The position numbers and the translations under genes were made by a program. DNA of 64,000 bases from an uncultured virus (IMG/VR IMGVR_UViG_3300021962_000081) (taxonomy: Duplodnaviria; Heunggongvirae; Uroviricota; Caudoviricetes), in IMG/VR virus record IMGVR_UViG_3300021962_000081; one strand, 5' to 3'. Below, one piece after another: positions 7,170 through 48,752 of the stretch (positions are counted from its first letter, which is position 1; every line of letters begins with the position of its first letter). The notes under the pieces are model-generated. The model was not told where the DNA came from, did no database searches, and saw nothing but the letters and a program-made list of their open reading frames with translations.

Positions 7170-7178
7170 GGATAAATC

Positions 7179-8250: not shown

Positions 8251-8253
8251 AAC

Positions 8254-29900: not shown

Positions 29901-29962
29901 CTAAGAAGGCATTAAAAATGCAAAAGTTTAATGAACAGGTTAAGGCTGCACGTCCCGAATAA
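23906..29962 (+). CDS. Large polyvalent protein (zincin-like HExxH domain, ParB-like motif, C-terminal LPD38-like region)
   Basis: ILHEVGVHYG...EEVLAH; HEGRHRA; YVPL.R; NLTVNF.KKG, LYAFFNASVQG, ENRDAFGRPI; 2018 aa. Confidence 0.7.
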   Translation: MPIDVQMPDGTVITGVPDGITQADLLARYTSYQKVPEVSPDTGFTGGFKSAAARLKGEAALTAGKLGIMDKAKAEQYLKEKEEEAQRSFKPTEKTWAEAPLEKLKETAGQSAAYMAAPLAVAGGVALLPEALVGAGALGLTTAGLTGAGVSYGQFVGSNLGRQVDEGKSLEEASLLKAGAAAVPQTALDVVGFKFIPGIRNIFAKAGVDVSKDVAEDVVKKSLLKTAGEYTLKTGKVMGVEGLTESGQQIFERLQAGLSLTDPEARREYFENFIGGAVLGGALSIPGQAYEKAKTKYEDKQIDKVLDVLNPKPDTTEAPTPTTPTPAPEPTNVMPADQVITLAQKRLNELETKMSGTPDQEIIGPDGEPMVMRGQSAQVINDQERAEYDFLKQNINNAPAIANNYGISIGEPKVEAQVAATPETIFTPETSPKTISKVQDTSQDTQAMLDELAGKEIELTADQFADETQKPTKIAEEPSGPITEEDKEFTPVGGRLINKADADRLARESAIALQQNLATQEEEKQKQLKQEAREEKFREPPTQTLSARLVQEGGISRAQKRDMLGETGKIEGYDHVFREKGGDLLTLVKDGKLDDYLPPDIRTTATTPDGLFDARPGYNYISDLIKTGEKIHTYDYEMAKLQHENMVYEKNLAKQQMTPNEAARAAAAEIQDKIFMSEGKIEGSTNPVEADAIVRKVLGKEGQKLLDNNKLKLIATANDLDARLLAQISPNTRAFYDPVTDTSYIITDRVKPGELRPMILHEVGVHYGMKKMLGDKAYKNLLANILKLRRTDKAVQDAFNTVSQTESYAKLLENESTIPEFLEEVLAHLGETAPTHNLWKRIVQAVKTFLIKNNIIKKLSLSEVQDLVTASLRTAANTKIDPKQIQVSDKILASKIVEKVKKIAGWTDDRLDKLMDNGTYSQNEKFARKYAVMMTPDEFLGLTTNKDMMGTLEKEADEMGPLDINTMREYDLPMFLDIKGPRTIDMEDKWGSKVDESDVGLEVRGHEGRHRAILMKRAGVERFPVVLNPEGGGQVERETIRVLKLFPQYAEGRASVVRNIIPINRTNEAELKGMLSESNIKYSQRPPLNIMGQEVLPQWHGPQESKIDEWLYRLQNKQIDTKRVQEAIGNIEEAWNVYEKEQLYHGRTAAGIRNFLLKELLPIIKEIERLKISPQEVRTYLHNRHAEERNIQMNKINPGTYNPETGRTDPNKLLDIGSGISTADARAYLAGLDPAKKKTLEDVAEKFDQMIKGTQQILVNSGAESAETIAKWNKTYKHYVPLFRVEDEMARPSGLGGTGQGFAVSGPSSKRAMGSEKEVQDILSNIIAQRERALIRAEKIRVGRALYGLALQNPNPKFWMVINPDAIKSKRQAIAELTRMGIPDAAQVVENLMAEPKERYLKKVRAAEEGFELDEDFDFDSGLPVNQSKEVVASKVNVMSRYKDFVFPVRINGKDRYIFFNKNDPRALRMVQSLKNLDVENLGFIESIAGKFTRWFKNVNTQYNPVFGLVNFVRDTGGALLNLTNTEIAGDQAKVIAGAFKAMGGILNVHRAERKGAPAPTGPWAQLYQEARAQGFQTGYRDSLIRNQEEMQIIEHTLEQFKDSNTKKAFYSVIGGLTDFNDMMENAIRLSAYKAAIDRGFSKQKAAIIAKNLTVNFDKKGAWTAQVNALYAFFNASVQGTERIYRTIMGPKGKMIIGGGILAGMVQAMMMAAAGYDEDDPPEFVREKNFIIPLPDGTYITVPYPLGFNILPNSGRIVMDFMLHGGRDPAKHAVSLLSSAMNSFNPLGSTGFSMQTIMPTVLDPIAALAENRDAFGRPIARKDRATAPTPGYTRSRDTSTEISKGLSYFLNLASGGSKYQKGYISPTADEIDFLAGQVGGGLYREVTKAGKAVSSVFTGEEVPSYQRPVVGRFVGETGSQAAIAQTFYQNITRMTDHENEVKGRKKNQENVESYLKEYPEARLWRRANTIENEINELNKKKRLFIEKGFPKERIQAIDAKKALKMQKFNEQVKAARPE

Positions 29963-35930: not shown

Positions 35931-36635
35931 ATGAAATATAAATCAGTATTAGTTATATCAGATCTACATATTCCGTACCACCACCCAGATGCTTTTGCTT
36001 TTCTCACCGCACTCAAAAAACAATACAAGCCAGACCATGTAGTCAACATAGGTGATGAATTAGATATGCACGCTATGTCTATGCATGATAGCGATCCAGA
36101 CTTATACTCTGCTGGTCATGAGTTGGCTGCCTCTATATCTTATATTCAGAAGCTTGAAAAGATATTTCCTAAGATGACTATCGTTCACTCTAATCATTCA
36201 TCTATGTTATTTAGACGTGCATTAAAACATGGTGTGCCTAAAGGTTACCTTAAACATTACAATGATTATCTTGGTGTAGGTAATGGTTGGCAGTGGGTTG
36301 ATGATCACACAATTACTTTGTCAGATGGTTCACGTTGTTTCTTTACTCACGGATTATCTGCTGACGTTCTTAAAGTAGCCATGCAGTATGGTATGAATAC
36401 GGTTCAGGGCCACTATCATACGAAGTTCAGCATTGGCTACTACTCTAATCCAGATGCACTAGTCTGGGGTATGCAAGTTGGTTGTTTAATCAATCAGAAG
36501 TCTATGGCATTCCAATATGCTAAAAACTTTAAGACTAGATTCATTGTAGGTTGTGGCATGATCATCAATGGTCAGCCTAAACTCATGCCTATGATGCTTA
36601 ATGCAAATGGTAAATGGATTGGTAAACTTTTGTAG
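35931..36635 (+). CDS. Calcineurin-like metallophosphoesterase
   Basis: SDLH, GDELD, SNH, HG, GHYH motifs; start at ATG 35931 after CGAGGGA. Confidence 0.85.
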   Translation: MKYKSVLVISDLHIPYHHPDAFAFLTALKKQYKPDHVVNIGDELDMHAMSMHDSDPDLYSAGHELAASISYIQKLEKIFPKMTIVHSNHSSMLFRRALKHGVPKGYLKHYNDYLGVGNGWQWVDDHTITLSDGSRCFFTHGLSADVLKVAMQYGMNTVQGHYHTKFSIGYYSNPDALVWGMQVGCLINQKSMAFQYAKNFKTRFIVGCGMIINGQPKLMPMMLNANGKWIGKLL

Positions 36636-36815
36636 GAGATATTATGCATTACATAATGATAGTAATCATGTTTGGCAATATGTCTGTTGAAACCTATAGT
36701 GTAGAATTTGATTCACAACTTACTTGTGAGAATGCAAAAACCGCTATAATAGAAAAGTATGATAATGTTAAACGACCAGGGATTACCCCTGTCATTATGT
36801 GTTTAAGGAAATAGT

Positions 36816-37028
36816 ATGGCAAGTGAAGCAGGAAAAGGCAGTAAACAAAGACCCACTAATAGAGAAGCCTATGACGAGGCATATGATCGTATATGGGGCA
36901 AGAAGAAGAATCAATCCTATAAAGATAAACCATACAAAGATGGCGTAGCTTATGATTCAGATTCAGAAATGCTTCGTGATATTAGATATGATGTAAAGTA
37001 TATACCAGACGATCACTATGAAGAGTGA
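36816..37028 (+). CDS. Small conserved phage protein
   Basis: GKGSK.RP....Y...YDRIW motif. Confidence 0.55.
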   Translation: MASEAGKGSKQRPTNREAYDEAYDRIWGKKKNQSYKDKPYKDGVAYDSDSEMLRDIRYDVKYIPDDHYEE

Positions 37029-37179
37029 GGTTCAGTCGCCTTGCATTAAAGTTTGTAAGCTGGAAAACAATCACTGCGTAGGCTGTGGTAGATCTAAGCA
37101 TGACATTACTTATTGGAATGAATACAGTAATGAGAAGAAGTTCCAGATAGTAAGAAAACTTAAGAAGAAAAAAAGATGA
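37018..37179 (+). CDS. DUF1289-like Cys-rich (putative Fe-S) protein, 53 aa, not in ORF track
   Basis: SPCIKVCKL....CVGCGRS..DI..W. Confidence 0.7.
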   Translation: MKSEVQSPCIKVCKLENNHCVGCGRSKHDITYWNEYSNEKKFQIVRKLKKKKR

Positions 37180-37280
37180 ACAAATTAGACCCTATCGTTC
37201 ACGGAATAGTCATTGCCGCCATGATGTATGGAATGTATGGTGTCATTAAACTATTCATAATGATGTATCAATACTTCTAA

Positions 37281-37895
37281 TTACCAAAACATAGTTAATA
37301 CGCCATTCAAGCGTATCAAATGTCCTTGTAATGTAATCCTGTATTCCCCATTCACATAAGTTTTTAATCCAGCAATCCTATGTAGCATAGTGCCATCATG
37401 GCCTATAAATTCTTTCTCTTCATAGGCTATATGTTTCTGTTTCCCATCTTCAATATAATCCAACCCACCCCCACCGCTTGGCATTTTGATTGCTACGGTG
37501 AATGCATAGGGATCAACTGATCCTAAGTCTAATGTAAGATGCGGGTAGTCTTGATGCCAAAGACCTGCATGGTTAAGCAGGAATGGACTTGACATAAAGA
37601 TGTGGAAGGAAGGTATTGCTAGGCGATCACTGATTGCAATAGGCTCACCGAACTGATTCGATAAGTGATCAATAATGATACCATATAAGCTATCAAATTC
37701 TTTTAAAAGTATTGGGTTTAGAGTCTTGATTTCCTCATGGTAAGCTGGGGTCTTGCCATCTAGGTAAGAGCACCTTCCAAGAGTGTAGAACGGGAATTCA
37801 TCTGATCTTGATATCCAGTGATGTTGCAGTCTAAAGACTTTATCGGCTATATCATCAACATCTATATCAAGTTTATGGCGTACAAAAGGGGACAT
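37281..37895 (-). CDS. 2OG-Fe(II) oxygenase superfamily protein
   Basis: H-x-D (WHQD), FTVAI..P..GGGL, distal H (LHRI), R (YRITLQG). Confidence 0.7.
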   Translation of the reverse strand: MSPFVRHKLDIDVDDIADKVFRLQHHWISRSDEFPFYTLGRCSYLDGKTPAYHEEIKTLNPILLKEFDSLYGIIIDHLSNQFGEPIAISDRLAIPSFHIFMSSPFLLNHAGLWHQDYPHLTLDLGSVDPYAFTVAIKMPSGGGGLDYIEDGKQKHIAYEEKEFIGHDGTMLHRIAGLKTYVNGEYRITLQGHLIRLNGVLTMFW

Positions 37896-37904
37896 AAGTC
37901 CCCT
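37883..37904 (-). terminator. Hairpin/terminator after pqqA, overlapping the oxygenase RBS and start codon
   Basis: Minus strand AGGGGAC-TTAT-GTCCCCT-TTTG. Confidence 0.55.
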
Positions 37905-37939
37905 ATTATACTACTAATAGCAATCTGTTACGATAACCA

Positions 37940-38011
37940 TTACTTGTTCATTACGTACATAGTTACTTCAAAGCCAAATCTCATTTCAGTAGCTGCTGGT
38001 TTTGTCCACAT
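37940..38011 (-). CDS. pqqA: PQQ precursor peptide PqqA (23 aa, not in ORF track)
   Basis: MWTKPAATEMRFGFEVTMYVMNK with the E-x3-Y motif; AGGAGA RBS upstream. Confidence 0.95.
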   Translation of the reverse strand: MWTKPAATEMRFGFEVTMYVMNK

Positions 38012-38128
38012 AATATTCTCCTATATGTTTATATTTTGCTATTTTGTATACACGTTATTGTGTATATGTTTATATTATGCCCATTTATATACATATCCAT
38101 CAGTAAAACCATGAATCCAGCCTAATAC

Positions 38129-38149
38129 TATATAACATTTAGTTATATA
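38129..38149. promoter_or_regulatory. Perfect 8-bp inverted repeat (possible operator) between divergent units
   Basis: TATATAAC-N5-GTTATATA. Confidence 0.35.
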
Positions 38150-38180
38150 CAAGTATTTCTATATAATTTTTACAAATATG

Positions 38181-38209
38181 TTGACAGGAATAGTCAGGTT
38201 TGCTATAGT
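38181..38209 (+). promoter_or_regulatory. Near-consensus sigma70 promoter
   Basis: TTGACA-N17-TATAGT with extended TG. Confidence 0.8.
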
Positions 38210-38215
38210 TTCGTT

Positions 38216-38322
38216 GTGAGTCCCTTTCCTCACGGCTTTTCTTTATCTACTCTCTCTGATAAAGTCTCGGTGTCCCTCGCACCTTAAAACCCTTAGGCTG
38301 ATCACCTAGGGGTTTTTCTTTT
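38216..38322 (+). ncRNA. Putative sRNA with three pyrimidine-loop hairpins and a terminator
   Basis: Promoter directly upstream; hairpins GTGAG/CTCAC, CTTTATC/GATAAAG, GGTG/CACC; no ATG in the unit. Confidence 0.7.
38286..38322 (+). terminator. Intrinsic terminator of the sRNA
   Basis: AAAACCCTTAGG-CTGATCA-CCTAGGGGTTTT followed by TCTTTT. Confidence 0.8.
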
Positions 38323-38329
38323 GTACCTC

Positions 38330-38358
38330 TTGCTTTTTTAATCCAATAGGTGTAAATT
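38330..38358 (+). promoter_or_regulatory. Probable sigma70 promoter of the replication operon
   Basis: TTGCTT-N17-TAAATT. Confidence 0.5.
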
Positions 38359-38364
38359 TATAAA

Positions 38365-38675
38365 TGAGAGATTAGAGAAGAAAAGTTGATGATGTATTTC
38401 TACGTCATTATCTTTCTATACTCAATCTATCCGTACTCCAAACGTTATCAGTGCACCTACATGGGTGGCTTGGAACGAAACATAGGCCTTGTTTACACCC
38501 GCAAGCGAGCCTCGTGAACTTAAATGGGTATCACACAAGATGCATAGGACTGGGGTGACTTGCCTACTATGCACCGATTGAACATTAACTCTGTGTAGGA
38601 TTGGTATTGAGTGTGCTTCTGTTGCTCTCTATGGATCAAAGGTGATACTTCTCACCCTAGGCGGAGCTATGTCTA
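38365..38675 (+). ncRNA. Candidate large structured RNA (or replication-origin element)
   Basis: At least 7 nested helices, including a long-range ACATAG/CTATGT closing stem; no ORF of 60 aa or more. Confidence 0.5.
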
Positions 38676-39037
38676 AAAACAATGAAAGGATCATATGAGT
38701 TTTGAGAAAAGAAAACAAGATGGCTTTTTAACTAAGAAGCTTGCAGAAGAATTAAAGTTGTATCATACTACTCCTGAGGAACTAGATCCCGTTAGAAAGA
38801 TGGCAATAGATTATCTGCTCTCTGATAGCTGGAAGAATTACAAAACATATAAGGGAATCCCACAATGAACTTCACACACGCAGTAGTAGATGATGGCGAT
38901 ATCATCAGAAAATATCGTTGGTCAAAACGAGAAGCTAAATGGTATAAAGATACGCACCCTGATATAGATGTGATAGAGTTACCTAAAGAACCAAAGGAAG
39001 TATTTAACATTAACGATTACGAGGAAGCACCATACTA

Positions 39038-39205
39038 ATGAGCGAAGTCTATCATAAAAAATATTTAACGACTGAACAGGTCATAGCAATCAAGAAGGCA
39101 TTAAAGACCATGCCTATTCCAAAAGTAGCTAAAGAATTTAATCTTAACAAACACAATGTAAGAAATATCTATCTTGGTATTTCATATAGAAACGTGGGTG
39201 AGTAA
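39038..39205 (+). CDS. Small helix-turn-helix protein (55 aa)
   Basis: LT.EQV.AIK.....MPI.KVAKEFNL....VRNI..G.SYR. Confidence 0.55.
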   Translation: MSEVYHKKYLTTEQVIAIKKALKTMPIPKVAKEFNLNKHNVRNIYLGISYRNVGE

Positions 39206-39364
39206 CATGGCTGAGACAAAGAAAACAATCATAGTTGAAAATGTTTTAGTTAAGGGGTATATTAAACACGCTAATGGAAAAAAGACTTTGTTTGAATTTA
39301 ACAAACAAGACTTTAACCCAAAAGCATTCGAGAAAATATTTGAGGAAGTGGGGAATAAATTTTA

Positions 39365-39592
39365 ATGTATACCGCAATTGATGACAGGAAGATGGCCAAT
39401 AAAATATTGTTTTATATTGTAGGATGTCCAAATGCTACGATAGATGACATCATTAATAATTGCCATACTAACTACCGCAGATTAAAGAAGTTAGAAGCAG
39501 AGGGATATATCGTATTACCAAAACCAACAGCGAGAGGACAAAGAAATAAGCAATACTATGAGGACAAAGCCATTCAATCAAGCGGTGCATGA
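39365..39592 (+). CDS. Small winged-helix-like protein
   Basis: KIL.YI...P.AT..DI.......YRRLKKLE.EGYI. Confidence 0.45.
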   Translation: MYTAIDDRKMANKILFYIVGCPNATIDDIINNCHTNYRRLKKLEAEGYIVLPKPTARGQRNKQYYEDKAIQSSGA

Positions 39593-39980
39593 TGCTTGTG
39601 ATCCGCCAGCAAGGGAAGCAGTAAGTAAGTATATCAAAGCCACATGGGGAATGAATGCGTGGCACAATCCTAATCAGTATGCAGTTGATCTCATTATCGA
39701 AAAAGATAAAGAGTTAATCGGCTATGCTGAAATTGAAATGAGAGATTGGGATCATTGTCCCTTCAAAACAATCCATATACCCAAGCGAAAAGATAAACTA
39801 TTCAACAACGATAAGAAGACTATTTATTTTGTTGTGTCAAGAGGTATGGAACGTGCATGGTATATAGATTCACAAGTGATTAAAGATTCAGCAGTCGCTG
39901 AGATACCTAACAAAGCAGTAAGTCAAGGGGAATATTTTTACGATGTTCCTACATACCTATTCACTGAAGTAAATTTGTAG
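39558..39980 (+). CDS. PD-(D/E)XK-like nuclease
   Basis: YAVDL......YAEIEMR.W...TIHIP.RK. Confidence 0.5.
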   Translation: MRTKPFNQAVHDACDPPAREAVSKYIKATWGMNAWHNPNQYAVDLIIEKDKELIGYAEIEMRDWDHCPFKTIHIPKRKDKLFNNDKKTIYFVVSRGMERAWYIDSQVIKDSAVAEIPNKAVSQGEYFYDVPTYLFTEVNL

Positions 39981-39993
39981 CATAGAATTATAA

Positions 39994-40290
39994 ATGAGAG
40001 ACAAGCCACAATATACAGATTTAGAACATAGGATATTAGAGTTATCTGATGTCATTGATATGTTAAATGAAGAGAACATTAAGCTCAAAGATATTGTTGC
40101 CTCTCACCAATGGAATGCAACAGAGTTTGAACAAGATTATATATTGCATGAGATCACTCAACTCAGAAAAGATATAGCAGTGCTAGAGAAGAGCGAAGCA
40201 AGTGCAATAGCAAGTAGAGATATGTTTCAAAATAGAAATGCAGAATTACTAAAACAATTAGCGTATTACAAGAGGCTTCACAAAGCCTAG
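39994..40290 (+). CDS. Coiled-coil protein upstream of the helicase
   Basis: L.EEN..LKD...SRD.FQ.RNAEL..Q. Confidence 0.55.
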   Translation: MRDKPQYTDLEHRILELSDVIDMLNEENIKLKDIVASHQWNATEFEQDYILHEITQLRKDIAVLEKSEASAIASRDMFQNRNAELLKQLAYYKRLHKA

Positions 40291-40327: not shown

Positions 40328-41815
40328 ATGTTAGAACTAAGAGAACACCAAAAGGGTGTTATTGATGCATTGCGTCAAGGATTTAAAGATGGTCATAGGG
40401 CTCAACTACTCTACGCACCCACAGGATTTGGAAAGACAGAGGTAGCTATCTACTTGATGGAAGCTACAAGAAAGAAAGATAACCGATCAGGCATGATCTT
40501 AGATCGTATAGTCTTAGTAGATCAAACATCACAACGACTAGAGAAGTATAATATTTTTCATGGCGTTCACCAAGCTGACCATTGGAAATATAATACATCA
40601 GAACTCATTCAAATATGCTCTTCTCAAACATTAGAGCGCAGACAAGACTTTCCAAAGATGGACTTGTTGATTATAGATGAATGTCATATTGCAAGAAGAC
40701 AGATCACAGAACTGATTAAGAAGAACCCAAAGCTCAGAGTGATTGGACTTACCGCTACACCCTTCACAAAAGGACTTGGTGATATCTATACCAATGTTGT
40801 ATGCGGATCAACGACACAATCCCTCGTGATTAATAAATGGTTAGCCCCTCTCAAAGTTTATATTGCCAAAGAAATTGACATGAAGGGCGCTAAAAAGATT
40901 GCGGGTGAATGGTCTCCTGATGTTGTTACAGAACGAGGCATGAGAATAACAGGGGATATTGTTCAGGAATGGATTAAAAAGACCCATGAGATATTCGGCA
41001 GGCCACGCAAGACCATAGTCTTTTGCGCTGGAGTAGCACATGGTCAAGACTTGGTTAAGCAGTTTGCCGAGAAGGGATACAATTTTGTATCTATCTCATA
41101 TAAAGAAACAAGCGAATTCAAGAAGGAGGTGATCGAGAACTTTAGCAAGCCCGATACAGACATTCATGGATTAATTGCTACTGATATTTTAACTCGTGGC
41201 TTTGATGTCCCTGATGTAATGATCGGAGTATCCGCTAGGCCATTCAGTAAATCCCTATCCTCACATATTCAACAGATGGGTAGGGTGATGCGCCCTTCGC
41301 CTGATAAAGAGTTTGCCTTATGGTTAGACCACTCAGGTAATTATGTCCGCTTCCGTAATGAATGGGAAGAAGTCTATCAAGAAGGTGTTAAAGACTTAGA
41401 CCCTAGCAAGATAGAACACGCACATAAAGAACCCACAGAACGAGAAAAGAAAGAAGCTAAGTGTCCCGCTTGCTCTGCGTTATGGGAACATGGATCAGAG
41501 GAATGTTATGCTTGCGGTTATGTCAGGAAGAAAAAACAATTCGGATCAATAGCGGGTGAGATGCACGAACTAGGTATGAATGGTCGTGATAAGCTAGAGA
41601 ACCGCCAACAATTCTTCTCTGAGTTGTTATACGTTGCTAAGAATAAGAATTATAGTCCTAATTGGGCAAGCCATAAGTATAGGGAAAAGTATGGTGTATG
41701 GCCTAGAGATTTAGTATATCGAACTGACACCCCATCTATTGCTACTATGAATTGGATCAAACATAGAATGATCGCTTATAGTAAAGCTAATAAAAAAGAT
41801 AGGAAGGTAGCATGA
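40328..41815 (+). CDS. Superfamily II DNA helicase (SSL2/RadD-like) with Zn finger
   Basis: APTGFGKT, DECH, GLTATP, RGFDVPD, QQMGRVMR, CPAC..C..CG. Confidence 0.92.
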   Translation: MLELREHQKGVIDALRQGFKDGHRAQLLYAPTGFGKTEVAIYLMEATRKKDNRSGMILDRIVLVDQTSQRLEKYNIFHGVHQADHWKYNTSELIQICSSQTLERRQDFPKMDLLIIDECHIARRQITELIKKNPKLRVIGLTATPFTKGLGDIYTNVVCGSTTQSLVINKWLAPLKVYIAKEIDMKGAKKIAGEWSPDVVTERGMRITGDIVQEWIKKTHEIFGRPRKTIVFCAGVAHGQDLVKQFAEKGYNFVSISYKETSEFKKEVIENFSKPDTDIHGLIATDILTRGFDVPDVMIGVSARPFSKSLSSHIQQMGRVMRPSPDKEFALWLDHSGNYVRFRNEWEEVYQEGVKDLDPSKIEHAHKEPTEREKKEAKCPACSALWEHGSEECYACGYVRKKKQFGSIAGEMHELGMNGRDKLENRQQFFSELLYVAKNKNYSPNWASHKYREKYGVWPRDLVYRTDTPSIATMNWIKHRMIAYSKANKKDRKVA

Positions 41816-42645
41816 GGTTCGAAGATTTTGCAAGGATACATGGTCTCATCGTTGATCGTGTGATCCCACATAGACAAGTTAGAACACCCACAGAAGATAA
41901 ACCAAGAAGTAAAAACGGATCGTATAAGTTCTTAGGCCATGTTGGTTTTGTAATTAATTGGGCTACGATGGAAGAGCCAGCAATTTGGTTTTCTGATGAT
42001 AAAACCGCCTCAGTCGAGGTGTTTAAAAAGAGTTCAATCGATCACACTAAAGAGCGTGAACGTCTAGCTAAGAAAGCAAGTGAGAAAGCGGGTTGGATAC
42101 TACACCAATGCAAACAAGAAAACCACCCATACCTAGCATCTAAAGGATTTCCTAATGAGTTAGGTAATGTATGGACTAAAGATAATGAACGCATATTAGT
42201 TATACCCATGCGGATCGACAAAAGACTCGTTGGTTGTCAACTCATCGATGACAAGGGGGTCAAGAAGTTCCTGTATGGTCAGACTACTAAGGGGGCAACC
42301 CTCACCATGAACGCAAAAGGGTATCCCATCTTCTGTGAGGGGTATGCGACTGCCCTTAGCATCAGAGAAGCCATGATCGCTAACAATGTCAAGTATTCGA
42401 TCCACGTTTGCTTTAGTGCATCTAACATGAAGTTCGTAGCAGGGCAATTCCCCTATGGACTCATCGTTGCCGACAACGATCACTCCCATGTTGGTGAGAC
42501 TACCGCTAGGAAAACAGGCAAGCCTTATTGGATTTCGCCCGCAATCTCCGAAGATTTTAATGATTTTCATAAACGAGTAGGCCTCTTTAAAGCCTCTCAA
42601 TCCCTTAAAAAGAAGTTAATAGAGATAGGTAGCTTGGTGTTCTAA
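41812..42645 (+). CDS. Toprim-domain primase-like protein
   Basis: HPYL..KG, LVIPM, Q.I...G.KKFL.G, CEGYATALSI, ADND, DFND. Confidence 0.85.
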   Translation: MRFEDFARIHGLIVDRVIPHRQVRTPTEDKPRSKNGSYKFLGHVGFVINWATMEEPAIWFSDDKTASVEVFKKSSIDHTKERERLAKKASEKAGWILHQCKQENHPYLASKGFPNELGNVWTKDNERILVIPMRIDKRLVGCQLIDDKGVKKFLYGQTTKGATLTMNAKGYPIFCEGYATALSIREAMIANNVKYSIHVCFSASNMKFVAGQFPYGLIVADNDHSHVGETTARKTGKPYWISPAISEDFNDFHKRVGLFKASQSLKKKLIEIGSLVF

Positions 42646-42660: not shown

Positions 42661-43041
42661 TCAATAAAAGTAAAGATTATTGACTTGCGCTAACAAAGGT
42701 TTCTTAAATACATTCTTGCTTGGGTGTATTCTATGGTCATGGAAAAACTGAGAATGCCCAACGGGATTGTAAGTATAGCCCTTTTGTTTTGTTAGAAATT
42801 TAACTGCCTGTAATTTATAAGTTAGTAATTGAATATGTGTTGGCTCTTTGGCCTTTCCTTGTTGGATCAAGGATATATACTCGAATTGTTTTGGCTCGTA
42901 AACTACATCACACACTCGACTAATCGTCTTGGCTCTGTTCATAACGACATTATAAACTGCCATCTGATTATCAAAGTTAGCACCCGCTTCACCGAATAAT
43001 ACAAGGGCTAAGCAAGTGCTTGCTAGTTCTAGTTCTACCAT
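42661..43041 (-). CDS. Cell wall hydrolase (SleB/Hydrolase_2 family)
   Basis: CLA..LF.EA......Q.AV..VV.NR......C.VV..P.QF. Confidence 0.8.
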   Translation of the reverse strand: MVELELASTCLALVLFGEAGANFDNQMAVYNVVMNRAKTISRVCDVVYEPKQFEYISLIQQGKAKEPTHIQLLTYKLQAVKFLTKQKGYTYNPVGHSQFFHDHRIHPSKNVFKKPLLAQVNNLYFY

Positions 43042-43143
43042 AAATAGTCCTCTTTGTTATTATGGAACGCACAGATTATCAGTATTATCAAGGCTTTCAA
43101 AGCATACATGGTCATCAATGTATGCTAAAATAAGCCTTACGGG

Positions 43144-43383
43144 CTATCCCTTTACCTCAACAACCCTGAAATCTTCAGCGTCAGGAACGTCTTCCATCTC
43201 ACCATTCCTAACTGCTTTACGCATCTGTTTAAAGAAATACTTTAAATCTTCCTCTGCGTCTTCCTCTGTATCATAAGTAGTTGGTATTGTATTTCCATGC
43301 TCATCTTCATGAGACCAAGTATTAGTCCAACCACCACATAAACAAAACTCTTGAATTTCATAGCGCATCATCTTCCTCCTCAT
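43144..43383 (-). CDS. Small acidic early protein
   Basis: YEIQ....GGWTN.W...P.TYDT...A; in the leftward early operon. Confidence 0.55.
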   Translation of the reverse strand: MRRKMMRYEIQEFCLCGGWTNTWSHEDEHGNTIPTTYDTEEDAEEDLKYFFKQMRKAVRNGEMEDVPDAEDFRVVEVKG

Positions 43384-43830
43384 CTACCATAAAATTAATT
43401 GATCTAATACCCTCAAATATCTGCATAACCTCGTAATCAATATCTAATTTATCTAATGCTTCAAAAAGTTCTTTTGGTGTCATATATCCCCCTAGTTAGT
43501 TAAGGCTTCATGTTTCAAAGCCATGTTGTCAATACAATTATTCATTCTTCTATCTGCTTCAATAGCTATGCTAACCATAAGATCAATGTAGTCATCACCC
43601 TCAACGCCCTCAATCTCATCTGCATCTTGCATAGCTTCTAATACGCTTTTATATATTGCTAATGCTCTGTTGTTCATAGCTTTTCCTCCGTATATACATC
43701 TTTATATTTAGCGGTAATAACTAACATCTCATGTCTTGGGTCAGCTTCGCATACTTTACATATCTCAACCCATACATCTTCATGGTGAAAGTCATCAGGG
43801 TATAGCTTTAAATGAAAAAATTCACTCATG

Positions 43831-43989
43831 TTATTCCTCCACATCATCTATTGTAAAATTATCGTAATCACAAGGCTCTAATTGAGTTGCCATGTCATAA
43901 AACTTCTGAATAGCTTCCTCTTTAGTTTCTGCCTCAATATCCTCTTTATAAAACACTTGCTCACTTGCTCTAATTCTAAATGTTTTCAT
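43831..43989 (-). CDS. DpnD/PcfM-like small protein (paralog)
   Basis: MKTFRIRASEQVFYKEDIEAETKEEAIQKFY; GGAG RBS. Confidence 0.6.
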   Translation of the reverse strand: MKTFRIRASEQVFYKEDIEAETKEEAIQKFYDMATQLEPCDYDNFTIDDVEE

Positions 43990-44203
43990 CTTTTAACTCC
44001 TCTACCTTTCTTTTATCCTCATAATAATCTACAACTTCAAAACCATGTTTGTTTGGCAAAGTTTCCATATATTCAGCGTGATTAAAAAAATCTATATCGT
44101 CAAACAATTGATCTACTTCATCAATGCTTTCTGCTTCAATATGGTAAACAACATTAACTATTTCCTGACGCTTTTCAGGCACGATAACTTTAAATGTTTT
44201 CAT
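43976..44203 (-). CDS. DpnD/PcfM-like small protein (paralog)
   Basis: MKTFKVIV...VVYHIEAESIDEV. Confidence 0.55.
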   Translation of the reverse strand: MKTFKVIVPEKRQEIVNVVYHIEAESIDEVDQLFDDIDFFNHAEYMETLPNKHGFEVVDYYEDKRKVEELKDENI

Positions 44204-44367
44204 TGTTGGCTCTCCCCTATAAATGTTATATCTGCATCTCTGATATCACTAGGCTCTAAATCGCTATATACCTCCCAAAACTTTTCACTAGCCTCATCAC
44301 GATCATTAGCCTCTACAATTTTTTTATACACATGAGTTTCCCTTGCTTCAATATAAAATTTACGCAC
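44200..44367 (-). CDS. DpnD/PcfM-like small protein (paralog)
   Basis: GTG start; MRKFYIEARETHVYKKIVEANDRDEASEKFW; AAGGAG RBS. Confidence 0.6.
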   Translation of the reverse strand: MRKFYIEARETHVYKKIVEANDRDEASEKFWEVYSDLEPSDIRDADITFIGESQQ

Positions 44368-44524
44368 CTTTTATCTCCTTAATTAAAACATCATCTAAAT
44401 ATTTAGCATCAACAGGATCAATACTTCCCTCACCATCATAAAGTTTTGCAAGGGCTTTATCCTCTGTGTCCGCTTCCATTATGTAATATTGCCACAATGT
44501 CTCTCTAATCATAAATTTAGGCAT
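44360..44524 (-). CDS. DpnD/PcfM-like small protein (paralog)
   Basis: MPKFMIRETLWQYYIMEADTEDKALAKLY; GAGGAG RBS. Confidence 0.55.
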   Translation of the reverse strand: MPKFMIRETLWQYYIMEADTEDKALAKLYDGEGSIDPVDAKYLDDVLIKEIKGA

Positions 44525-44595
44525 TTTTTAACTCCTCTAGTTAAGATTATCAAATGATAATCAGATAGCACCCATAAGGCGCTATCGGGTATCAC

Positions 44596-44862
44596 TTAAA
44601 TAACAGGGATAATGCTTAGGTTTTCATCAGATGTATATAATGCCCCTCCGTCATTACCTTCATCATCTTTCTGAGGAATTATGTATGAGCCATCAGTAAA
44701 TTTAATAATGATAGGCTTGCTATACCACATAAAATCATTCATTTCCTCATCATTCATGTATCTAACTGATTGAATAGTCTTGCCTACTAAAAAATCACTA
44801 GCCTTTTTATTCCATTTATTAGTGATATCTAAATTGTATTGTTTTCTTTCTTGCGGTGTCAT
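44596..44862 (-). CDS. Conserved phage early protein
   Basis: LVGKTI..VRYM..E....W.......F.DG....P..DDEGN.GGAL. Confidence 0.65.
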   Translation of the reverse strand: MTPQERKQYNLDITNKWNKKASDFLVGKTIQSVRYMNDEEMNDFMWYSKPIIIKFTDGSYIIPQKDDEGNDGGALYTSDENLSIIPVI

Positions 44863-45028
44863 ACTGCCTCCTCTATAAGTTCTAGTTCTGAAGTTCTATA
44901 TATAAGTGTATTATCGGGTGCTTCAAACTCGCTATCGTCATCAGTAATAACAACCTTTGTCCCCCAATCGTAGCGTATGATTGTCCCTGTAATATCTTGG
45001 TCTTTTACTTTTACCCTGTCCCCAATAT

Positions 45029-45328
45029 TCATACTGAACCCCCATAAAACTTTTCAAAGTCTTCAGAGTAAAAGGTTCTAGTGCAACCCCTTGATACCCT
45101 AATCCAACCATCTTCATCATAATCATTGTTGGTCATAGCAAACTCTATTGTGATAGAAGTAATTAATGACGGATCGCCATCATCTACTTCATCAGCTTCA
45201 GTTTCATACTCATCTACTTCCGCCTTATCTACTACAAAATCATGGTGTGCAAAAAAATACTGCCCTACATTTACACCCATACATTTTGAAAATTCATCTA
45301 TATCATTTTCTTTCAAGTAAATACTCAT
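45029..45328 (-). CDS. Acidic hypothetical early protein
   Basis: ORF with GAGG RBS, very D/E-rich. Confidence 0.55.
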   Translation of the reverse strand: MSIYLKENDIDEFSKCMGVNVGQYFFAHHDFVVDKAEVDEYETEADEVDDGDPSLITSITIEFAMTNNDYDEDGWIRVSRGCTRTFYSEDFEKFYGGSV

Positions 45329-46140
45329 CTCACTTCCTCCTCGATGTTATCTTTATAAAATTTCTCTATCTCTTTATCAGGCATATTGACCCAACCTTTC
45401 CAACCATTTCTGATAATATCTTCCATACTACTCCACTCTGCACCTTCGTGAAGCCAATCAGTTTCATATTTAATACAAGCCTCTCTCATTTCATCTATTG
45501 TCATACTGCCTCCCATTTCTTAATTTGATCTAATAAATCCTCTGCCAATTCAAGCCTACCTTCAAAAATACCCCCTGAATTATCTGTGAGATATTCATTT
45601 CCCAAAGCGTCTTCAGCGTCTTCTGATACATTAATACAATAATTTTTTATTAGCTTTATAATTGCCTCATGCTTATTCATATTGCCCCCTTTATTCTATT
45701 TGGTCTTTTTTATATACATATGCTTGAATGCCTCTGTCATTTAATGCCTCTATAATGTCGTCTAAAAAATCACCACTACTTTCAAAAACATCACTTACTT
45801 CTATTACATAATCTTCTGTTTTTTTCTTATTCATACCGCCTCCCAATCGCTATCAATTTCATAAGCCAAAACCCACTCAAAAAAGTCATCTTCGTTATCT
45901 TTCCACATATAAGCAAAGTCTTTATCGTCATATCTTAATTGCTGAAATTCATTGTAAAGCCTATGATTTTTGTAAGTCATATTGCCCCCTCTGTTTGTTT
46001 AACATCACTATGTTGTTTGCGCCAAGCCTTGACCATAGAATACCGCATGGCCTCTCTTAAAGTTCTTGGTGTCTGCCATTGATAGTAATTGTATTTAAAG
46101 AATTGCTTAGCCTTTTCTTGATCTGTTTTCATAGTTCCCC

Positions 46141-46581
46141 CTACCATGATGATTGATAATAAAAATCCCAATTATCTTTGATATCCTCATCAGAGATAAG
46201 CTTTTCTAAAGCGGGTATTGTTCGTCTAATCTGTTCTAGTTCCCATTCTTTTCCGTCATTATCATCAGCTTGAAGCGGGAATATATCCTCAGCTATTGAC
46301 GGATTTTTATCTACCTTTCTCAAGGTATCCAATAGATTTCCTAATAAATCTCTTGAAACAAAATACTCCCCACAATTATCCTCGCCACCTTGAGCATTCA
46401 TAACGAACCAATGATGAATAGCCCATGCCTTGCGCCAATAAAAAGCCTCTTTTCTTACTTCATTCGTATGACCTAATGACGCACCGCCTATCATTTCATC
46501 AATCTTATTTGCTAAGGCTTGATCGTGTTCGTTAAAACTCCACAAATAACGCTTAGCTGATAAATACATATCTAGTCCCAT
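46141..46581 (-). CDS. Conserved phage early protein (MGLDMYL family)
   Basis: MGLDMYL...YWRKA.AIH.WF......DNC..Y...FYYQSSW. Confidence 0.7.
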   Translation of the reverse strand: MGLDMYLSAKRYLWSFNEHDQALANKIDEMIGGASLGHTNEVRKEAFYWRKAWAIHHWFVMNAQGGEDNCGEYFVSRDLLGNLLDTLRKVDKNPSIAEDIFPLQADDNDGKEWELEQIRRTIPALEKLISDEDIKDNWDFYYQSSW

Positions 46582-46584
46582 TTT

Positions 46585-46797
46585 TTACTCCTTAAAATAT
46601 ACATCGCAAGTTAATTTCCAATTATCAAAATACCCTTTTCTTTCTATACCAAACTCCATCAACTTATCTTCAAACATGGCCAATATTTCCTCATACATAT
46701 TTTGGCTAATATCTGATAAATCAGCTTGAAGCCCATGCTTTTCAACATAAGCTTCTGCCTTAGCTTGCATTTCCTCATTTTCAACATTTATAGTCAT
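46585..46797 (-). CDS. Acidic hypothetical early protein
   Basis: ORF with GAAAGGGG RBS. Confidence 0.55.
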   Translation of the reverse strand: MTINVENEEMQAKAEAYVEKHGLQADLSDISQNMYEEILAMFEDKLMEFGIERKGYFDNWKLTCDVYFKE

Positions 46798-47445
46798 AAT
46801 TTTCCCCTTTCAAAGTTAATAAAAACAAAACCGCCTCATGCGAAGTAATGACGCAAACTTTTCTATGCGCCTACTTATCCCATAAAGCGATAATTTCACC
46901 TGATTTAATCAGATCAGCAACCCATAACCCGAAATCAGTAGAGCGATAAAAAGCATTGAAGCCCCTGTCCTGATGTCTTAGTTGTTGAAACCTATCAACC
47001 AAGTTATCAAAATCAACCATTTGTAATTTTTCCATGATTAAGCCTCAGGGTGCTTATGTTCCCAAACACCCTTCCCTAAGTTAATTAATGTCTGCGCCTC
47101 ATTTGGATATAATCCATGATGCTCAGCAAATTTATCAATAGTAAGATAATCGTTTCTATAATCTAAATATGCATCAATAAGGATATCTCTTAATTCTTTA
47201 TTCCATTTGATCATGATTAGCCCTCTCTTTTAAAATGTCTCTGATAATTTCCGCCTCATGCTCGGTAATGCTAAGCCAATTCGTATTTCCGCTTTCTGCA
47301 TTAATTTTCAGGCTTAAAGCCTCGCCCTTAGTGTTGAATATCTTGTTGAATTGCTGGTCGATATAATCCATAAAGAACCCCTTCAAAAGTTTATAAATTG
47401 GCCTAATTTAAGCCCCTAAGCGCCCTAAGATAAGGCGCTTAAAGA

Positions 47446-47859
47446 TTAAACTACATGAGGCGTTTGTTGTGCTAGCGTGTCGCATTCCTCTTTATTAATC
47501 AAGCCTAAGCGCCTTAAATCGTGCATTATTGAATAGTTAGTATGGAAAACCATATCCATACCGCAACCGCCAATTCTGAAGTAGTCGCTATCATTAATTT
47601 TTCTGTATCCTAAAGCGTCAAAGAATTGATAAAAATTATAAAGAAAATGTCTATTCTCGCCCTTGCTCATCTCTAAGAATTTAATAGTGCGGGACATTCC
47701 GCTTTTTGAAACCGAACCGATAGAACAGATCATTCTAGCCTCTTTAATTGCGCTTATATATCTTTTGGCGTGATCTATGAAAGTTTCGGAAGTCATTCCA
47801 TAGGTGTTCTTTTTATTGTAATTTTTTACTATTACTTCTATTTCTGTTGTGTTTATCAT
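47446..47859 (-). CDS. Conserved phage early protein
   Basis: VSKSGMSR.IK...GCGMDMVFH..Y motif; start moved to the ATG after the AAGGGG RBS. Confidence 0.65.
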   Translation of the reverse strand: MINTTEIEVIVKNYNKKNTYGMTSETFIDHAKRYISAIKEARMICSIGSVSKSGMSRTIKFLEMSKGENRHFLYNFYQFFDALGYRKINDSDYFRIGGCGMDMVFHTNYSIMHDLRRLGLINKEECDTLAQQTPHVV

Positions 47860-48557: not shown

Positions 48558-48752
48558 CTAATAGTTATTATTGACATAATCAAGCAAGGAAGCCTTGATT
48601 GATTGAGTATCGATGTTCTGATAGTCGTTATTGATAAGATTGGTTAAAAGGCTAGTGTAGTTCTCATCATCTAATAGTAAATGACTATCGACTAAGGCCT
48701 CATTGACTACTGCGCTATGTATTGCATTAGCTAAACTATAATTAATGTTCAT
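48558..48752 (-). CDS. First gene of the leftward early operon (hypothetical)
   Basis: GAAAGGGG RBS directly downstream of the promoter. Confidence 0.55.
   Translation of the reverse strand: MNINYSLANAIHSAVVNEALVDSHLLLDDENYTSLLTNLINNDYQNIDTQSIKASLLDYVNNNY

What the first reader, a model, noticed from the sequence alone, without database searches (positions are those of the whole stretch)
38181..38322. Phage sRNA presenting three anti-Shine-Dalgarno-like loops, two matching specific phage RBSs
Seen: a near-consensus promoter (TTGACA-17-TATAGT) and a strong terminator bracket ~105 nt with no start codon. This folds into three consecutive hairpins with loops UCCCUUUC (38221-28), UACUCUCUCU (38248-57) and UCCCUCG (38273-79). 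Loop 1 pairs (7 WC plus one G.U) with the GAAAGGGG RBS of the first early gene (minus strand 48759-66) and of early gene 46585..46797 (46804-11). Loop 3 pairs with CGAGGGA before the metallophosphoesterase (35920-26) and CGAGGG before the first middle-operon gene (30395-400). Most late genes use AGGA(G)-type RBSs instead. Established: C-rich loops that seed on SD sequences are how S. aureus RNAIII and RsaE repress translation. Inference: a multi-arm phage sRNA that silences early/middle or host mRNAs according to RBS type, acting as a translational timing switch. Matches of 6-8 nt can arise by chance.
Basis: partly seen in the sequence, partly recalled or inferred. Interest (0 to 1): 0.85.

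Follow-up and report, generated by a model that had tools for sequence, protein, structure and literature searches.

The report
Phage sRNA pairing with neighbouring leader

Summary
The anatomy is confirmed. A near-consensus sigma-70 promoter, three hairpins and a strong terminator define a ~107-nt RNA (38216-38322). It has no Rfam match. I found 22 related loci in viral contigs and 10 further variants in metagenome contigs. All four helices co-vary (22 of 29 pairs, 0 of 500 shuffles).

The proposed RBS targets exist at the stated coordinates, but they are not more than chance. Motif counts equal shuffled expectation. Shuffled loops pair about as well. An anti-SD-like control gives the same early/late contrast. 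Cognate phage-sRNA pairs show no advantage.

A different target is strongly supported. sRNA nt 38230-38256 (hairpin-2 5' arm and loop) pairs with 38366-38392. That segment is the start of a transcript from a conserved second promoter, found in 22 of 22 loci. The complementarity is kept while the sequences change completely (cognate -28.8 vs non-cognate -21.5 kcal/mol, 0 of 10000 permutations; repeated on new loci).

The same segment also pairs in cis with 38408-38432. That helix closes the entry to a new ~225-nt structured RNA that precedes the helicase-primase operon.

Best reading: a neighbour-encoded antisense-like regulator, working like P4 CI, P1 c4 or IsrK. The regulatory outcome and the role of the invariant C-rich loops remain open.

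The parts
38181..38209 (+). P1, promoter of the sRNA (TTGACA-17-TATAGT, TG-extended); predicted start near 38216
   Evidence: 11 of 12 matches. A TTGAC(A/T)-17-TATAnT element stands at the same place in all homologues read.
38216..38233 (+). Hairpin 1, 5'-terminal, 5-bp stem, loop UCCCUUUC (38221-38228)
   Evidence: The loop is identical in the window and its 14 close homologues. It is also identical in 9 of the 10 new metagenome variants; the tenth, L307, has a CCUCC-type loop. All 5 stem pairs show compensatory change in the 23-sequence alignment. No partner was established.
38230..38256 (+). Region A: linker, 5' arm and loop of hairpin 2; pairs with the 5' end of the P2 transcript (region B)
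   Evidence: Window duplex is -29.1 kcal/mol. Cognate vs non-cognate is -28.84 vs -21.50 kcal/mol, with 0 of 10000 permutations as low. Repeated on 10 new loci: -25.35 vs -20.36, 0 of 10000.
38241..38264 (+). Hairpin 2, 7-bp stem, CU-rich loop UACUCUCUCU (38248-38257); probable seed for region B
   Evidence: Five of 7 pairs co-vary. In most loci the best loop-to-leader duplex is this loop against leader nt 40-51 after the U-tract.
38269..38283 (+). Hairpin 3, 5-bp stem, loop CCCUC (38274-38278); the U.G closing pair marks the + strand
   Evidence: all 5 pairs co-vary; UG in 14 of 23. No partner was established.
38286..38322 (+). Intrinsic terminator of the sRNA (12-bp stem, 7-nt loop, U5CU4)
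   Evidence: Seven of 12 pairs co-vary.
38330..38358 (+). P2, second promoter-like element (TTGCTT-17-TAAATT); predicted start about 38364-38366
   Evidence: TTGnnn-16/17-TAnnnT is present at the same position in 22 of 22 sRNA-bearing loci. It falls below the threshold of the generic scan (3 of 6 in the -35).
38366..38392 (+). Region B: purine-rich first ~27 nt of the P2 transcript; pairs with A (sRNA) or with A' (in cis)
38408..38432 (+). Region A': pyrimidine-rich cis partner of B; B:A' closes a 5' hairpin that abuts the core RNA
   Evidence: B x A' cognate -23.17 vs non-cognate -16.06 kcal/mol, 0 of 10000 permutations. It appears in the MFE fold of 38361-38705.
38434..38665 (+). Core: conserved multi-helix structured RNA with no Rfam family. 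It is followed by the SD GAAAGGA (38684-38690) and the ATG at 38695 of the first gene of the operon that holds the helicase (40328-41815) and primase (41812-42645).
   Evidence: Its lead motif is in 119 viral contigs. A two-block pattern is in 63 metagenome contigs. RNAalifold on 65 sequences gives 61 pairs, 32 with compensatory change. The tool run gives 25 pairs, 19 compensatory. Rfam finds nothing. Helicase and primase are named.

Best explanation
What is encoded (shown). Host RNA polymerase can read a near-consensus promoter (P1). The product is a ~107-nt RNA ending at its own terminator. It has a 5' hairpin, a central hairpin with a CU-rich loop, a third hairpin and the terminator hairpin. 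About 40 nt further on, a second conserved promoter (P2) starts a longer RNA. The first ~27 nt of that RNA (region B) are purine-rich. B is followed by a small hairpin, a pyrimidine-rich segment (A'), a ~225-nt conserved structured core, and then the replication operon.

What pairs (shown by covariation). B can pair with A' in cis, which closes a 5' helix abutting the core. B can also pair with the sRNA's central region A, meaning the hairpin-2 5' arm and loop.

Proposed mechanism (inferred). The sRNA acts in trans. It seeds with its hairpin-2 loop on the nascent 5' end of the P2 RNA. It extends to a ~25-bp imperfect duplex and displaces or pre-empts A'. This refolds the entry to the core and changes expression or stability of the leader-replication transcript.

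Direction of the effect (a guess). By analogy with RNA regulators of replication genes, I expect repression that grows as the sRNA accumulates.

Open point. The invariant C-rich loops of hairpins 1 and 3 are under selection, but they have no established partner. They may add a second contact or act on other mRNAs.
For: The sRNA is real and conserved:
- Promoter, terminator and fold are as described.
- All 15 close sequences fold alone into the same four hairpins.
- In the 23-sequence alignment, 96.9% of cells are paired and 22 of 29 pairs have changes on both sides, against 7.4 +/- 1.8 in shuffles (0 of 500). Slid controls give at most 4 such pairs.

The A x B complementarity is kept while sequences diverge completely:
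- The window has a ~25-bp duplex at -29.1 kcal/mol. L060 has 19 contiguous bp and L084 has 18.
- Over 22 loci, cognate -28.84 vs non-cognate -21.50 kcal/mol, with 0 of 10000 permutations as low. The cognate sRNA ranks first of 22 for 13 of 22 leaders.
- Against a shuffled B, at most 6 of 200 shuffles are as good in 18 of 22 loci.
- Repeat on 10 further variants from metagenome contigs: -25.35 vs -20.36, 0 of 10000.

Other support:
- B x A' co-varies as well: -23.17 vs -16.06, 0 of 10000.
- P2 is present in 22 of 22 loci, with B starting 6-9 nt after its -10.
- In sRNA-less relatives, the RNA's 5' end likewise pairs with the segment just before the core motif. I read this by eye in L034 and L037.
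- The core lies before replication genes in both phage types.

Published precedents for same-strand, neighbour-targeting phage RNAs:
- IsrK binds one strand of a leader helix and frees the other (PMC4825925, abstract and passages read).
- P4 CI RNA pairs with sites up- and downstream of itself to stop transcription of the replication genes (same paper).
- c4 of P1/P7 (PMC12197685, passages read).
Against: - No expression data exist for the sRNA. None of the laid RNA-library contigs covers it.
- The duplex energies ignore the sRNA's own structure. Part of region A is the 5' arm of hairpin 2 and must open.
- Four of 22 loci are weak against a shuffled B: L094 42 of 200, L062 41 of 200, L038 and L098 17 of 200.
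- Related sequences share ancestry, so permutation counts overstate independence.
- The test for an RNA-strand signature in A x B was inconclusive: -28.84 as + strand RNAs vs -27.97 as minus-strand RNAs, and + was better in 12 of 22.
- No consequence of freeing A' could be shown. A' x first-ORF TIR gives p = 0.41 and sRNA body x TIR gives p = 0.12.
- Blocking B in the window changes the predicted accessibility of SD+AUG only from 0.56 to 0.60.
- Trans action and pairing inside a P1 read-through transcript cannot be told apart from sequence.
Confidence: 0.55

Rival explanations
1. This is a multi-arm anti-Shine-Dalgarno sRNA whose C-rich loops 1 and 3 bind G-rich RBSs of phage early/middle genes, or of host mRNAs, and so time translation. 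It could also be true in addition to the neighbour-leader pairing.
For: - The C-rich loops are the most conserved unpaired parts. UCCCUUUC is invariant in the close set. CCCUC, CCUCUC or CCUCC types stand in divergent members.
- G-rich RBSs are enriched in the minus-strand small-gene block here (7 of 22 vs 3 of 91), in G006 (6 of 21 vs 4 of 89) and in G003 (12 of 24 vs 0 of 18).
- sRNA loops against the TIR of the first gene after the core show a weak cognate advantage: -8.16 vs -7.46, with 310 of 10000 permutations as low.
- C-rich loops that bind SD regions are established for other sRNAs, for example the 6C sRNA (PMC6486639, title and abstract seen in a search listing).
Against: - Motif counts are at chance.
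- Shuffled loops do about as well, 39 of 200.
- An anti-SD-like control shows the same block contrast, so that block simply has stronger SDs.
- There is no cognate advantage in the 6x6 matrix.
- G002, G004 and G005 carry the sRNA but have no G-rich RBS class.
- G003 has the most G-rich RBSs, yet its loops are of the CCUCUC type.
- Host targets could not be tested because no host genome is known.
Confidence: 0.15
2. This is one long RNA rather than two. P1 transcripts that read through the terminator carry A, B and A' in cis. A x B would then be an intramolecular long-range helix, and the terminator a regulated attenuator. The short form may then act on the long form, as described for IsrK.
For: - In sRNA-less relatives, a terminator-like long stem plus U-run lies only about 10-20 nt before the core. 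No second promoter fits in between, so transcription there must pass it.
- The sRNA terminator and U-tract resemble that stem (D3).
- There is a published precedent: IsrK exists as a short and a read-through isoform (PMC4825925, abstract and passages read).
Against: - The terminator is strong (12 bp, U5CU4).
- A separate promoter-like element is conserved in 22 of 22 loci, with B placed at its predicted +1.
- One RNA-library contig of a relative covers 38386-38697. At its upstream end it carries 13 more letters and then letters that I recall as sequencing adapter, not sRNA sequence. This is a weak hint only.
Confidence: 0.2
3. The repeats act as DNA. A, B and A' would be inverted and direct DNA repeats bound by a phage regulator around P2, and the RNA complementarity would be a by-product.
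For: - The strand test for A x B is inconclusive.
- The region lies between divergent transcription units. It has other direct repeats upstream, 38022-38052 and 38063-38093.
Against: - The complementary stretches are 18-27 nt long, imperfect and bulged. They include G.U pairs (L084).
- They coincide with the loop and arm of a co-varying RNA hairpin and with the predicted +1 of a transcript.
- B x A' forms the closing stem of an RNA hairpin whose equivalent exists in relatives with unrelated sequences.
- No DNA-binding gene is found next to the sRNA in this window.
Confidence: 0.05

Closest known systems
P4 CI RNA, P1/P7 c4 RNA and Gifsy-1 IsrK. I recall these as the C4 antisense RNA family of Rfam; the mechanisms are from PMC4825925 and PMC12197685.
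   Same: - All are small phage RNAs encoded on the same strand as, and next to, the leader they act on.
- Their unpaired parts are complementary to sites in that leader.
- IsrK binds one strand of a leader helix and frees the other.
- P4 CI controls the replication genes.
   Different: - No sequence or structure match to any Rfam family.
- This RNA has its own promoter and intrinsic terminator. By recall, c4 and CI are instead cut out of the leader.
- The target is the extreme 5' end of a separately initiated transcript.
- That transcript holds a large conserved structured RNA that those systems lack.
- The outcome here is unknown.
Plasmid copy-control antisense RNAs (ColE1 RNA I/RNA II, R1 CopA/CopT, pT181 RNA I). 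This comparison is recalled from general knowledge and was not tested here.
   Same: - A ~100-nt RNA with several stem-loops.
- It binds the 5' part of a longer structured RNA of the replication region and changes how that RNA folds.
- Initial contact is through a loop.
   Different: - Those RNAs are made from the opposite strand of their target and are perfectly complementary.
- Here the regulator is a tandem, same-strand gene with imperfect, co-evolving complementarity.
- There is no evidence that the long RNA primes replication.
C-rich-loop, SD-binding sRNAs. The 6C sRNA is from PMC6486639 (listing seen).
   Same: Hairpin loops rich in C (UCCC or CCCU) that could pair with GGGA or GAGG in ribosome-binding sites.
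   Different: - No RBS complementarity beyond composition was found.
- The probable host is a methylotrophic proteobacterium, not a Gram-positive (inference).
- The supported pairing uses the CU-rich middle hairpin, not the C-rich loops.

Membership tests
Rfam C4 antisense RNA family (c4 / CI / IsrK) | Match to the family's covariance model | tested here: not met
   cmscan of the whole window at gathering scores gave 0 matches. cmscan of 37900-38720 at E up to 10 gave only 4 weak matches to unrelated families.
Rfam C4 antisense RNA family (c4 / CI / IsrK) | Same-strand position next to a leader that holds complementary target sites | tested here: met
   A (38230-38256) and B (38366-38392) lie on the + strand about 110 nt apart. 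Their complementarity co-varies.
Rfam C4 antisense RNA family (c4 / CI / IsrK) | Mature RNA produced by processing of the leader transcript (a recalled feature of c4 and CI) | not testable with these tools
   Here the RNA has its own promoter and terminator. No RNA ends were observed.
Trans-acting base-pairing sRNA (general class) | Own promoter and intrinsic terminator bracketing a non-coding stretch | tested here: met
   The feature is conserved in the homologues.
Trans-acting base-pairing sRNA (general class) | Conserved secondary structure with compensatory changes | tested here: met
   22 of 29 pairs have changes on both sides, and 0 of 500 shuffles reach this. The alignment was fitted to the model, which favours the structure. 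However, each of the window and its 14 close homologues also folds this way on its own.
Trans-acting base-pairing sRNA (general class) | Target complementarity maintained by co-evolution | tested here: met
   Cognate vs non-cognate energies in two sets of loci, with 0 of 10000 permutations in each.
Trans-acting base-pairing sRNA (general class) | A discrete transcript of the predicted size | tested here: inconclusive
   The one run search found only small shares. The four runs laid gave no contig over 38216-38279. Contigs cannot show small RNAs or ends.
Anti-Shine-Dalgarno sRNAs with C-rich loops (RNAIII / RsaE / 6C type) | C-rich unpaired loops | tested here: met
   Loops UCCCUUUC and CCCUC. 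They are conserved.
Anti-Shine-Dalgarno sRNAs with C-rich loops (RNAIII / RsaE / 6C type) | Loop complementarity to target RBSs beyond what composition gives | tested here: not met
   39 of 200 shuffled loops are as good. An anti-SD-like control gives the same contrast. There is no cognate advantage. Motif counts are at chance. Only phage genes were tested.
True cis-antisense replication control RNA (ColE1 RNA I type) | Transcribed from the strand opposite its target, giving perfect complementarity | tested here: not met
   Regulator and target are tandem on the + strand. The duplex is imperfect.

The most novel reading that the evidence does not exclude
The sRNA, the P2 5' helix and the ~225-nt core form an RNA-only control module for phage replication genes. 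The core would be a new class of large structured RNA, present in at least about 110 viral contigs and absent from Rfam. Its entry helix would be opened by a dedicated, co-evolving trans sRNA in one lineage. In sister phages that position is occupied by a Cro-like protein gene. The module would be either an RNA replacement for a protein switch or a phage counterpart of the ColE1 RNA I/RNA II primer control.
Probability: 0.25. Interest if true: 0.85.

Novelty: new variant of a known kind. Interest (0 to 1): 0.66.

Why it matters
Few phage sRNAs have a known target, and almost none come from uncultivated environmental phages. Here sequence comparison alone gives three things:
- a regulator-target pair with strong co-evolution;
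- the nucleotides to mutate;
- a simple reporter design, because both promoters look like ordinary sigma-70 promoters.

It also exposes a widespread, unannotated ~225-nt structured RNA that sits in front of the replication genes of at least two phage types. That RNA is a candidate new RNA class whose function could now be tested.

The work also shows that short loop-to-RBS matches, however tidy, were not the informative signal at this locus.

Tried and rejected
Database and expression searches:
- Rfam found nothing. The whole window at gathering scores gave 0 matches. The locus at E up to 10 gave 4 chance-level matches. Three sRNA-less loci at E up to 0.1 gave 0 matches.
- No tRNA or tmRNA was found.
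- The isolate phage collection holds no match to the sRNA (one 22-nt match at E = 6). It holds no match to a group-2 core.
- The window's own assembly is not held.
- The search of earlier findings by place and by sequence returned nothing.
- RNA evidence: the one run search found only small shares. Four runs were laid. Three RNA libraries gave one contig each, from relatives (roughly 85-97% alike), over parts of 38386-38724. None lay over the sRNA, so nothing follows for or against its expression.
- Host: the genome-contig scan with the core motif gave 74 loci. Only 2 are real by nhmmer, and both are short contigs of one Methylococcaceae MAG. This gives no reliable host or prophage.

Tests that gave no or weak support:
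- hp3-pattern scan: it returned the same loci as the hp1 scan plus 3 chance hits, and no hairpin-1 variants.
- RBS targeting: no support.
- C-rich loops against the G-rich hairpin loop of the core: cognate -8.69 vs non-cognate -8.90, with 7919 of 10000 permutations as low. GGGG does stand in that loop in 19 of 23 sRNA-bearing cores and in 0 of 42 sRNA-less cores, but shared ancestry confounds this.
- A' or the sRNA body against the first-ORF TIR: no cognate signal.
- Strand test on A x B: inconclusive (that script stopped with an error after printing this result and was rerun).

Technical points:
- MAFFT alignments of the sRNA misaligned hairpin 2. I replaced them with model-based alignments.
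- The alignment of the core included 4 chance rows (L072, L076, L078, L082). I dropped them. Four other chance loci (L050, L104, L109, L110) were dropped.
- A covariance model of the core was not attempted because its length exceeds the calibration limit.
Full report
**1. The observation**

- A TTGACA-17-TATAGT promoter with a TG extension lies at 38181-38209 (11 of 12 matches). It is the best of 15 promoter-like sites in 36500-40000.
- A 12-bp terminator hairpin at 38286-38316 is followed by a T-run.
- No ORF of 30 aa or more lies on the + strand between 38115 and 38385. The RNA has no AUG.
- The RNA 38216-38326 folds into hairpins 38216-38233 (loop UCCCUUUC), 38241-38264 (loop UACUCUCUCU) and 38269-38283 (loop CCCUC), plus the terminator.
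- The MFE is -32.9 kcal/mol, against -19.6 +/- 3.2 for 200 dinucleotide shuffles (z = -4.1; none as good).

**2. It is a conserved RNA gene, on the + strand**

Rfam has no family for it. The isolate phage collection has no match.

Finding relatives:
- An exact scan of IMG/VR with hairpin 1 found 16 loci. One is a chance hit (L016). One is the record nearest the window and is identical to it. The other 14 are distinct homologues.
- A scan with hairpin 3 found the same loci, minus two that have a different hairpin 3, plus 3 chance hits.
- Each of the 15 sequences folds on its own into the same four hairpins.

Covariation:
- A model built from the window and L007 aligned the 15 sequences. In that alignment 98% of cells are paired, and 7 pairs changed on both sides against 1.8 +/- 1.0 in shuffles (0 of 500).
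- Looking upstream of a conserved downstream motif (section 4) added eight divergent members. With 23 sequences, 22 of 29 pairs show compensatory change against 7.4 +/- 1.8 (0 of 500). Slid controls give at most 4. All four helices co-vary.
- These alignments are fitted to the model, which favours the structure. The single-sequence folds do not depend on it.

Strand: U.G pairs in hairpin 3 (14 of 23) and in the terminator (16 of 23) would be A.C on the other strand. This excludes the GGA-loop, minus-strand reading.

**3. The proposed RBS targets**

All four matches are at the stated coordinates. However, the supporting statistics fail.
- GAAAGGGR occurs 4 times in the window, one being the sRNA gene itself, against 3.44 +/- 1.63 expected. 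CGAGGG occurs 5 times, one being the gene itself, against 6.59 +/- 2.75 expected.
GGGG stands in -20..-3 of 7 of 22 genes of the minus-strand block 42661-48752, against 3 of 91 other genes (p = 3.6e-4). The same holds in G006 (6 of 21 vs 4 of 89) and G003 (12 of 24 vs 0 of 18). It does not hold in G002, G004 or G005, which also carry the sRNA.
- The mean best loop-to-TIR duplex is -8.42 kcal/mol for that block and -5.48 elsewhere. A recalled anti-SD-like 12-mer gives the same contrast (-7.31 / -4.84).
- Shuffled loops give -7.83 +/- 0.69, and 39 of 200 are as good as the real loops.
- A 6x6 matrix of sRNAs against RBS sets has no cognate advantage.

That block therefore simply has strong, G-rich SDs, and any CU-rich loop fits them. 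Host mRNAs could not be tested.

**4. What lies next to the sRNA**

The 370 nt between the terminator and the next gene (ATG 38695) are conserved at 74-84% among relatives, although the genes after them differ.

This stretch holds a second promoter-like element, TTGCTT-17-TAAATT at 38330-38358. The same element (TTGnnn-16/17-TAnnnT) is present in 22 of 22 sRNA-bearing loci at the same place.

It also holds a structured RNA.
- Its lead motif (from 38434) occurs in 119 IMG/VR contigs. Eighty were fetched, and eight of those proved to be chance hits.
- A two-block pattern occurs in 63 metagenome contigs.
- RNAalifold on 65 true members gives 61 pairs, 32 with compensatory change and 94% canonical. 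A long-range helix (38438-38447 with 38650-38661) closes several hairpins.
- The tool run, which included 4 chance rows, gave 25 pairs, 19 of them compensatory.
- Many U.G pairs fix the + strand. Rfam has nothing for it.

Only 22 of the 80 viral loci and 20 of the 63 metagenome loci carry the sRNA upstream. Some loci are cut at contig ends, so these are lower bounds.

The other loci have a different ~150-nt 5' domain. It follows a small gene that matches Cro/repressor-type PHROGs. The RNA there is followed by a replication-initiator gene (G008, a 35.6-kb record with terminal repeats).

In this window the RNA precedes small ORFs, an SF2 helicase (40328-41815) and a Toprim primase (41812-42645).

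**5. The supported target**

I scanned each sRNA's unpaired segments against its own downstream leader. In most loci the best site was the same: the hairpin-2 loop or central region against leader nt 40-51 after the U-tract. That is the predicted first bases of the P2 transcript.

Example duplexes:
- Window: sRNA 38230-38256 pairs with 38366-38392. This is about 25 bp with two 1-nt interruptions (-29.1 kcal/mol for 38229-38264 x 38356-38393).
- L060: 19 contiguous pairs between entirely different sequences.
- L084: 18 contiguous pairs.

Statistics:
- Over 22 loci, cognate pairs average -28.84 kcal/mol and non-cognate pairs -21.50. None of 10000 permutations is as low. The cognate sRNA is the best of 22 for 13 of 22 leaders.
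- Against mononucleotide shuffles of B, at most 6 of 200 are as good in 18 of 22 loci. The four weak loci are L094, L062, L038 and L098.
- Ten further, non-identical sRNA-leader pairs from metagenome contigs repeat the result: -25.35 vs -20.36, 0 of 10000.
- Small-scale co-changes are visible by eye there. In L291, UCUUCCUU faces AAGGAAGA. In L301, UUUUCCCUU faces AAGGGGAAAA.

The same segment B also pairs in cis with the pyrimidine-rich segment A' (38408-38432). Together they form a 5' hairpin that abuts the core. This pairing co-varies too: -23.17 vs -16.06, 0 of 10000. In sRNA-less relatives, the RNA's 5' end likewise pairs with the segment just before the core motif (read by eye in L034 and L037). 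The sRNA therefore carries a second copy of the partner of B.

**6. Mechanism**

Shown: the gene anatomy; the conservation and covariation of the sRNA; the conserved second promoter; and the two mutually exclusive, co-evolving pairings A x B and B x A'.

Inferred: the sRNA acts in trans, seeding with its hairpin-2 loop on the nascent 5' end of the P2 RNA. It prevents or displaces B:A', and this alters the leader and core upstream of the replication operon.

The direction of the effect is a guess. I favour repression, by analogy with RNA control of replication genes.

I could not find what the freed A' does.
- In the window's constrained fold, A' re-pairs with the SD/AUG region of the 38695 ORF. 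However, the predicted accessibility of that site barely changes (0.56 to 0.60).
- No cognate signal exists across loci (p = 0.41 and p = 0.12).

A read-through version, in which A x B forms inside one long P1 transcript as described for IsrK, remains possible.

The invariant C-rich loops have no established partner.
- The first-ORF SD (GAAAGGA, 38684-38690) fits loop 1 over 6 bp, with only a weak cognate signal (310 of 10000).
- The G-rich core loop shows none. This is despite GGGG standing there in 19 of 23 sRNA-bearing cores and in 0 of 42 sRNA-less cores.

**7. Expression data**

The single run search found only small shares. Contigs from three RNA libraries cover parts of 38386-38724 in relatives.

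One 361-nt contig spans 38386-38697 and continues into a downstream ORF. At its upstream end it carries 13 more letters and then letters that I recall as sequencing adapter. This is compatible with a 5' end near P2, but contigs cannot show ends. Nothing follows for the sRNA.

**8. Comparison with known systems**

The nearest known systems are the same-strand phage RNAs c4 (P1/P7), CI (P4) and IsrK (Gifsy-1).
- The IsrK paper (PMC4825925, abstract and passages read) describes a short terminated RNA that binds one strand of a helix in the longer leader and frees the other.
- The same paper recounts that P4 CI RNA pairs with seqA and seqC, up- and downstream of itself, to terminate transcription of the replication genes.
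- A 2025 review (PMC12197685, passages read) describes c4 as acting through loop sequences on the ant RBS. None of the passages I read, found with a few search terms, describes an RNA like the present one. I did not read its Table 1 or its supplementary table in full.

The present RNA works like these but is not a member of their family. It has no model match, it has its own promoter and terminator, and its target is the 5' end of a separate transcript that carries a large new structured RNA.

ColE1 RNA I/RNA II is a functional parallel that I recall from general knowledge. Those RNAs are true opposite-strand antisense.

**9. Host and setting**

The window is a phage. It encodes terminase, portal, major head protein, tail fibres, Erf, RusA, an exonuclease, a helicase and a primase. 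A near-complete relative is 63 kb (G006).

A 23-aa PqqA gene lies just upstream of the sRNA on the minus strand. Its DNA matches Methylophilales and Methylophilaceae phages. This points to a methylotroph host, by inference only.

**10. Verdict**

The sRNA is real and is a new family. A neighbour-leader target is well supported by co-evolution, and it ties the sRNA to a widespread, undescribed structured RNA in front of the replication genes.

Noticed in passing
window 38434-38665 (+): A ~225-nt multi-helix structured RNA with no Rfam family. Its lead motif is in 119 viral contigs, and a two-block pattern is in 63 metagenome contigs. It has 61 consensus pairs, 32 with compensatory change. In two phage types it sits directly before the replication genes. 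Its function is unknown.
   Followed up: partly
window 37943-38011 (-): A 23-aa PqqA peptide gene (Pfam PF08042, 42.4 bits against a cut-off of 21.1) with its own AGGAG RBS. Its DNA is 83-95% identical over about 75-85 nt to unannotated stretches of Methylophilales phages (Venkman, MEP301, MEP401/402). This looks like a phage-borne auxiliary gene for PQQ synthesis and gives a clue to a methylotroph host.
   Followed up: partly
window 42661-48752 (-), and the same block in G006 and G003: The block of small minus-strand genes uses G-rich RBSs (AAAGGGG, GAGGGGG) far more often than the rest of the genome: 7 of 22 vs 3 of 91 here, and 12 of 24 vs 0 of 18 in G003. Three other related records do not show this. 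The reason is unknown.
   Followed up: partly
window 38022-38052 and 38063-38093: Two 31-nt direct repeats (84% alike, 41 nt apart) lie in the AT-rich gap between pqqA and the sRNA promoter. A second pair lies at 38123-38148 and 38154-38179. They are candidate operator or origin repeats.
   Followed up: no
window 2060-9231 (+): Five paralogous genes match the same PHROG (phrog_2295, the C-terminal part of a 1183-position profile). A homing-endonuclease-like ORF (3172-3759) lies between the first two. This looks like a cassette array of tail-fibre-like genes.
   Followed up: no
window 23906-29962 (+): A 2018-aa protein with an LPD38 domain (Pfam PF18857). It gives strong matches to the ends of 3400-3900-position PHROG profiles and has an internal lysin-like stretch. 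It is probably a giant ejected virion protein.
   Followed up: no
L244 (G008) 17008-17259 and 18239-18763: In 35-kb relatives that lack the sRNA, the structured RNA lies between a Cro/repressor-like HTH gene and a replication-initiator gene. Its ~150-nt 5' domain contains a terminator-like long stem that resembles the sRNA's terminator.
   Followed up: partly
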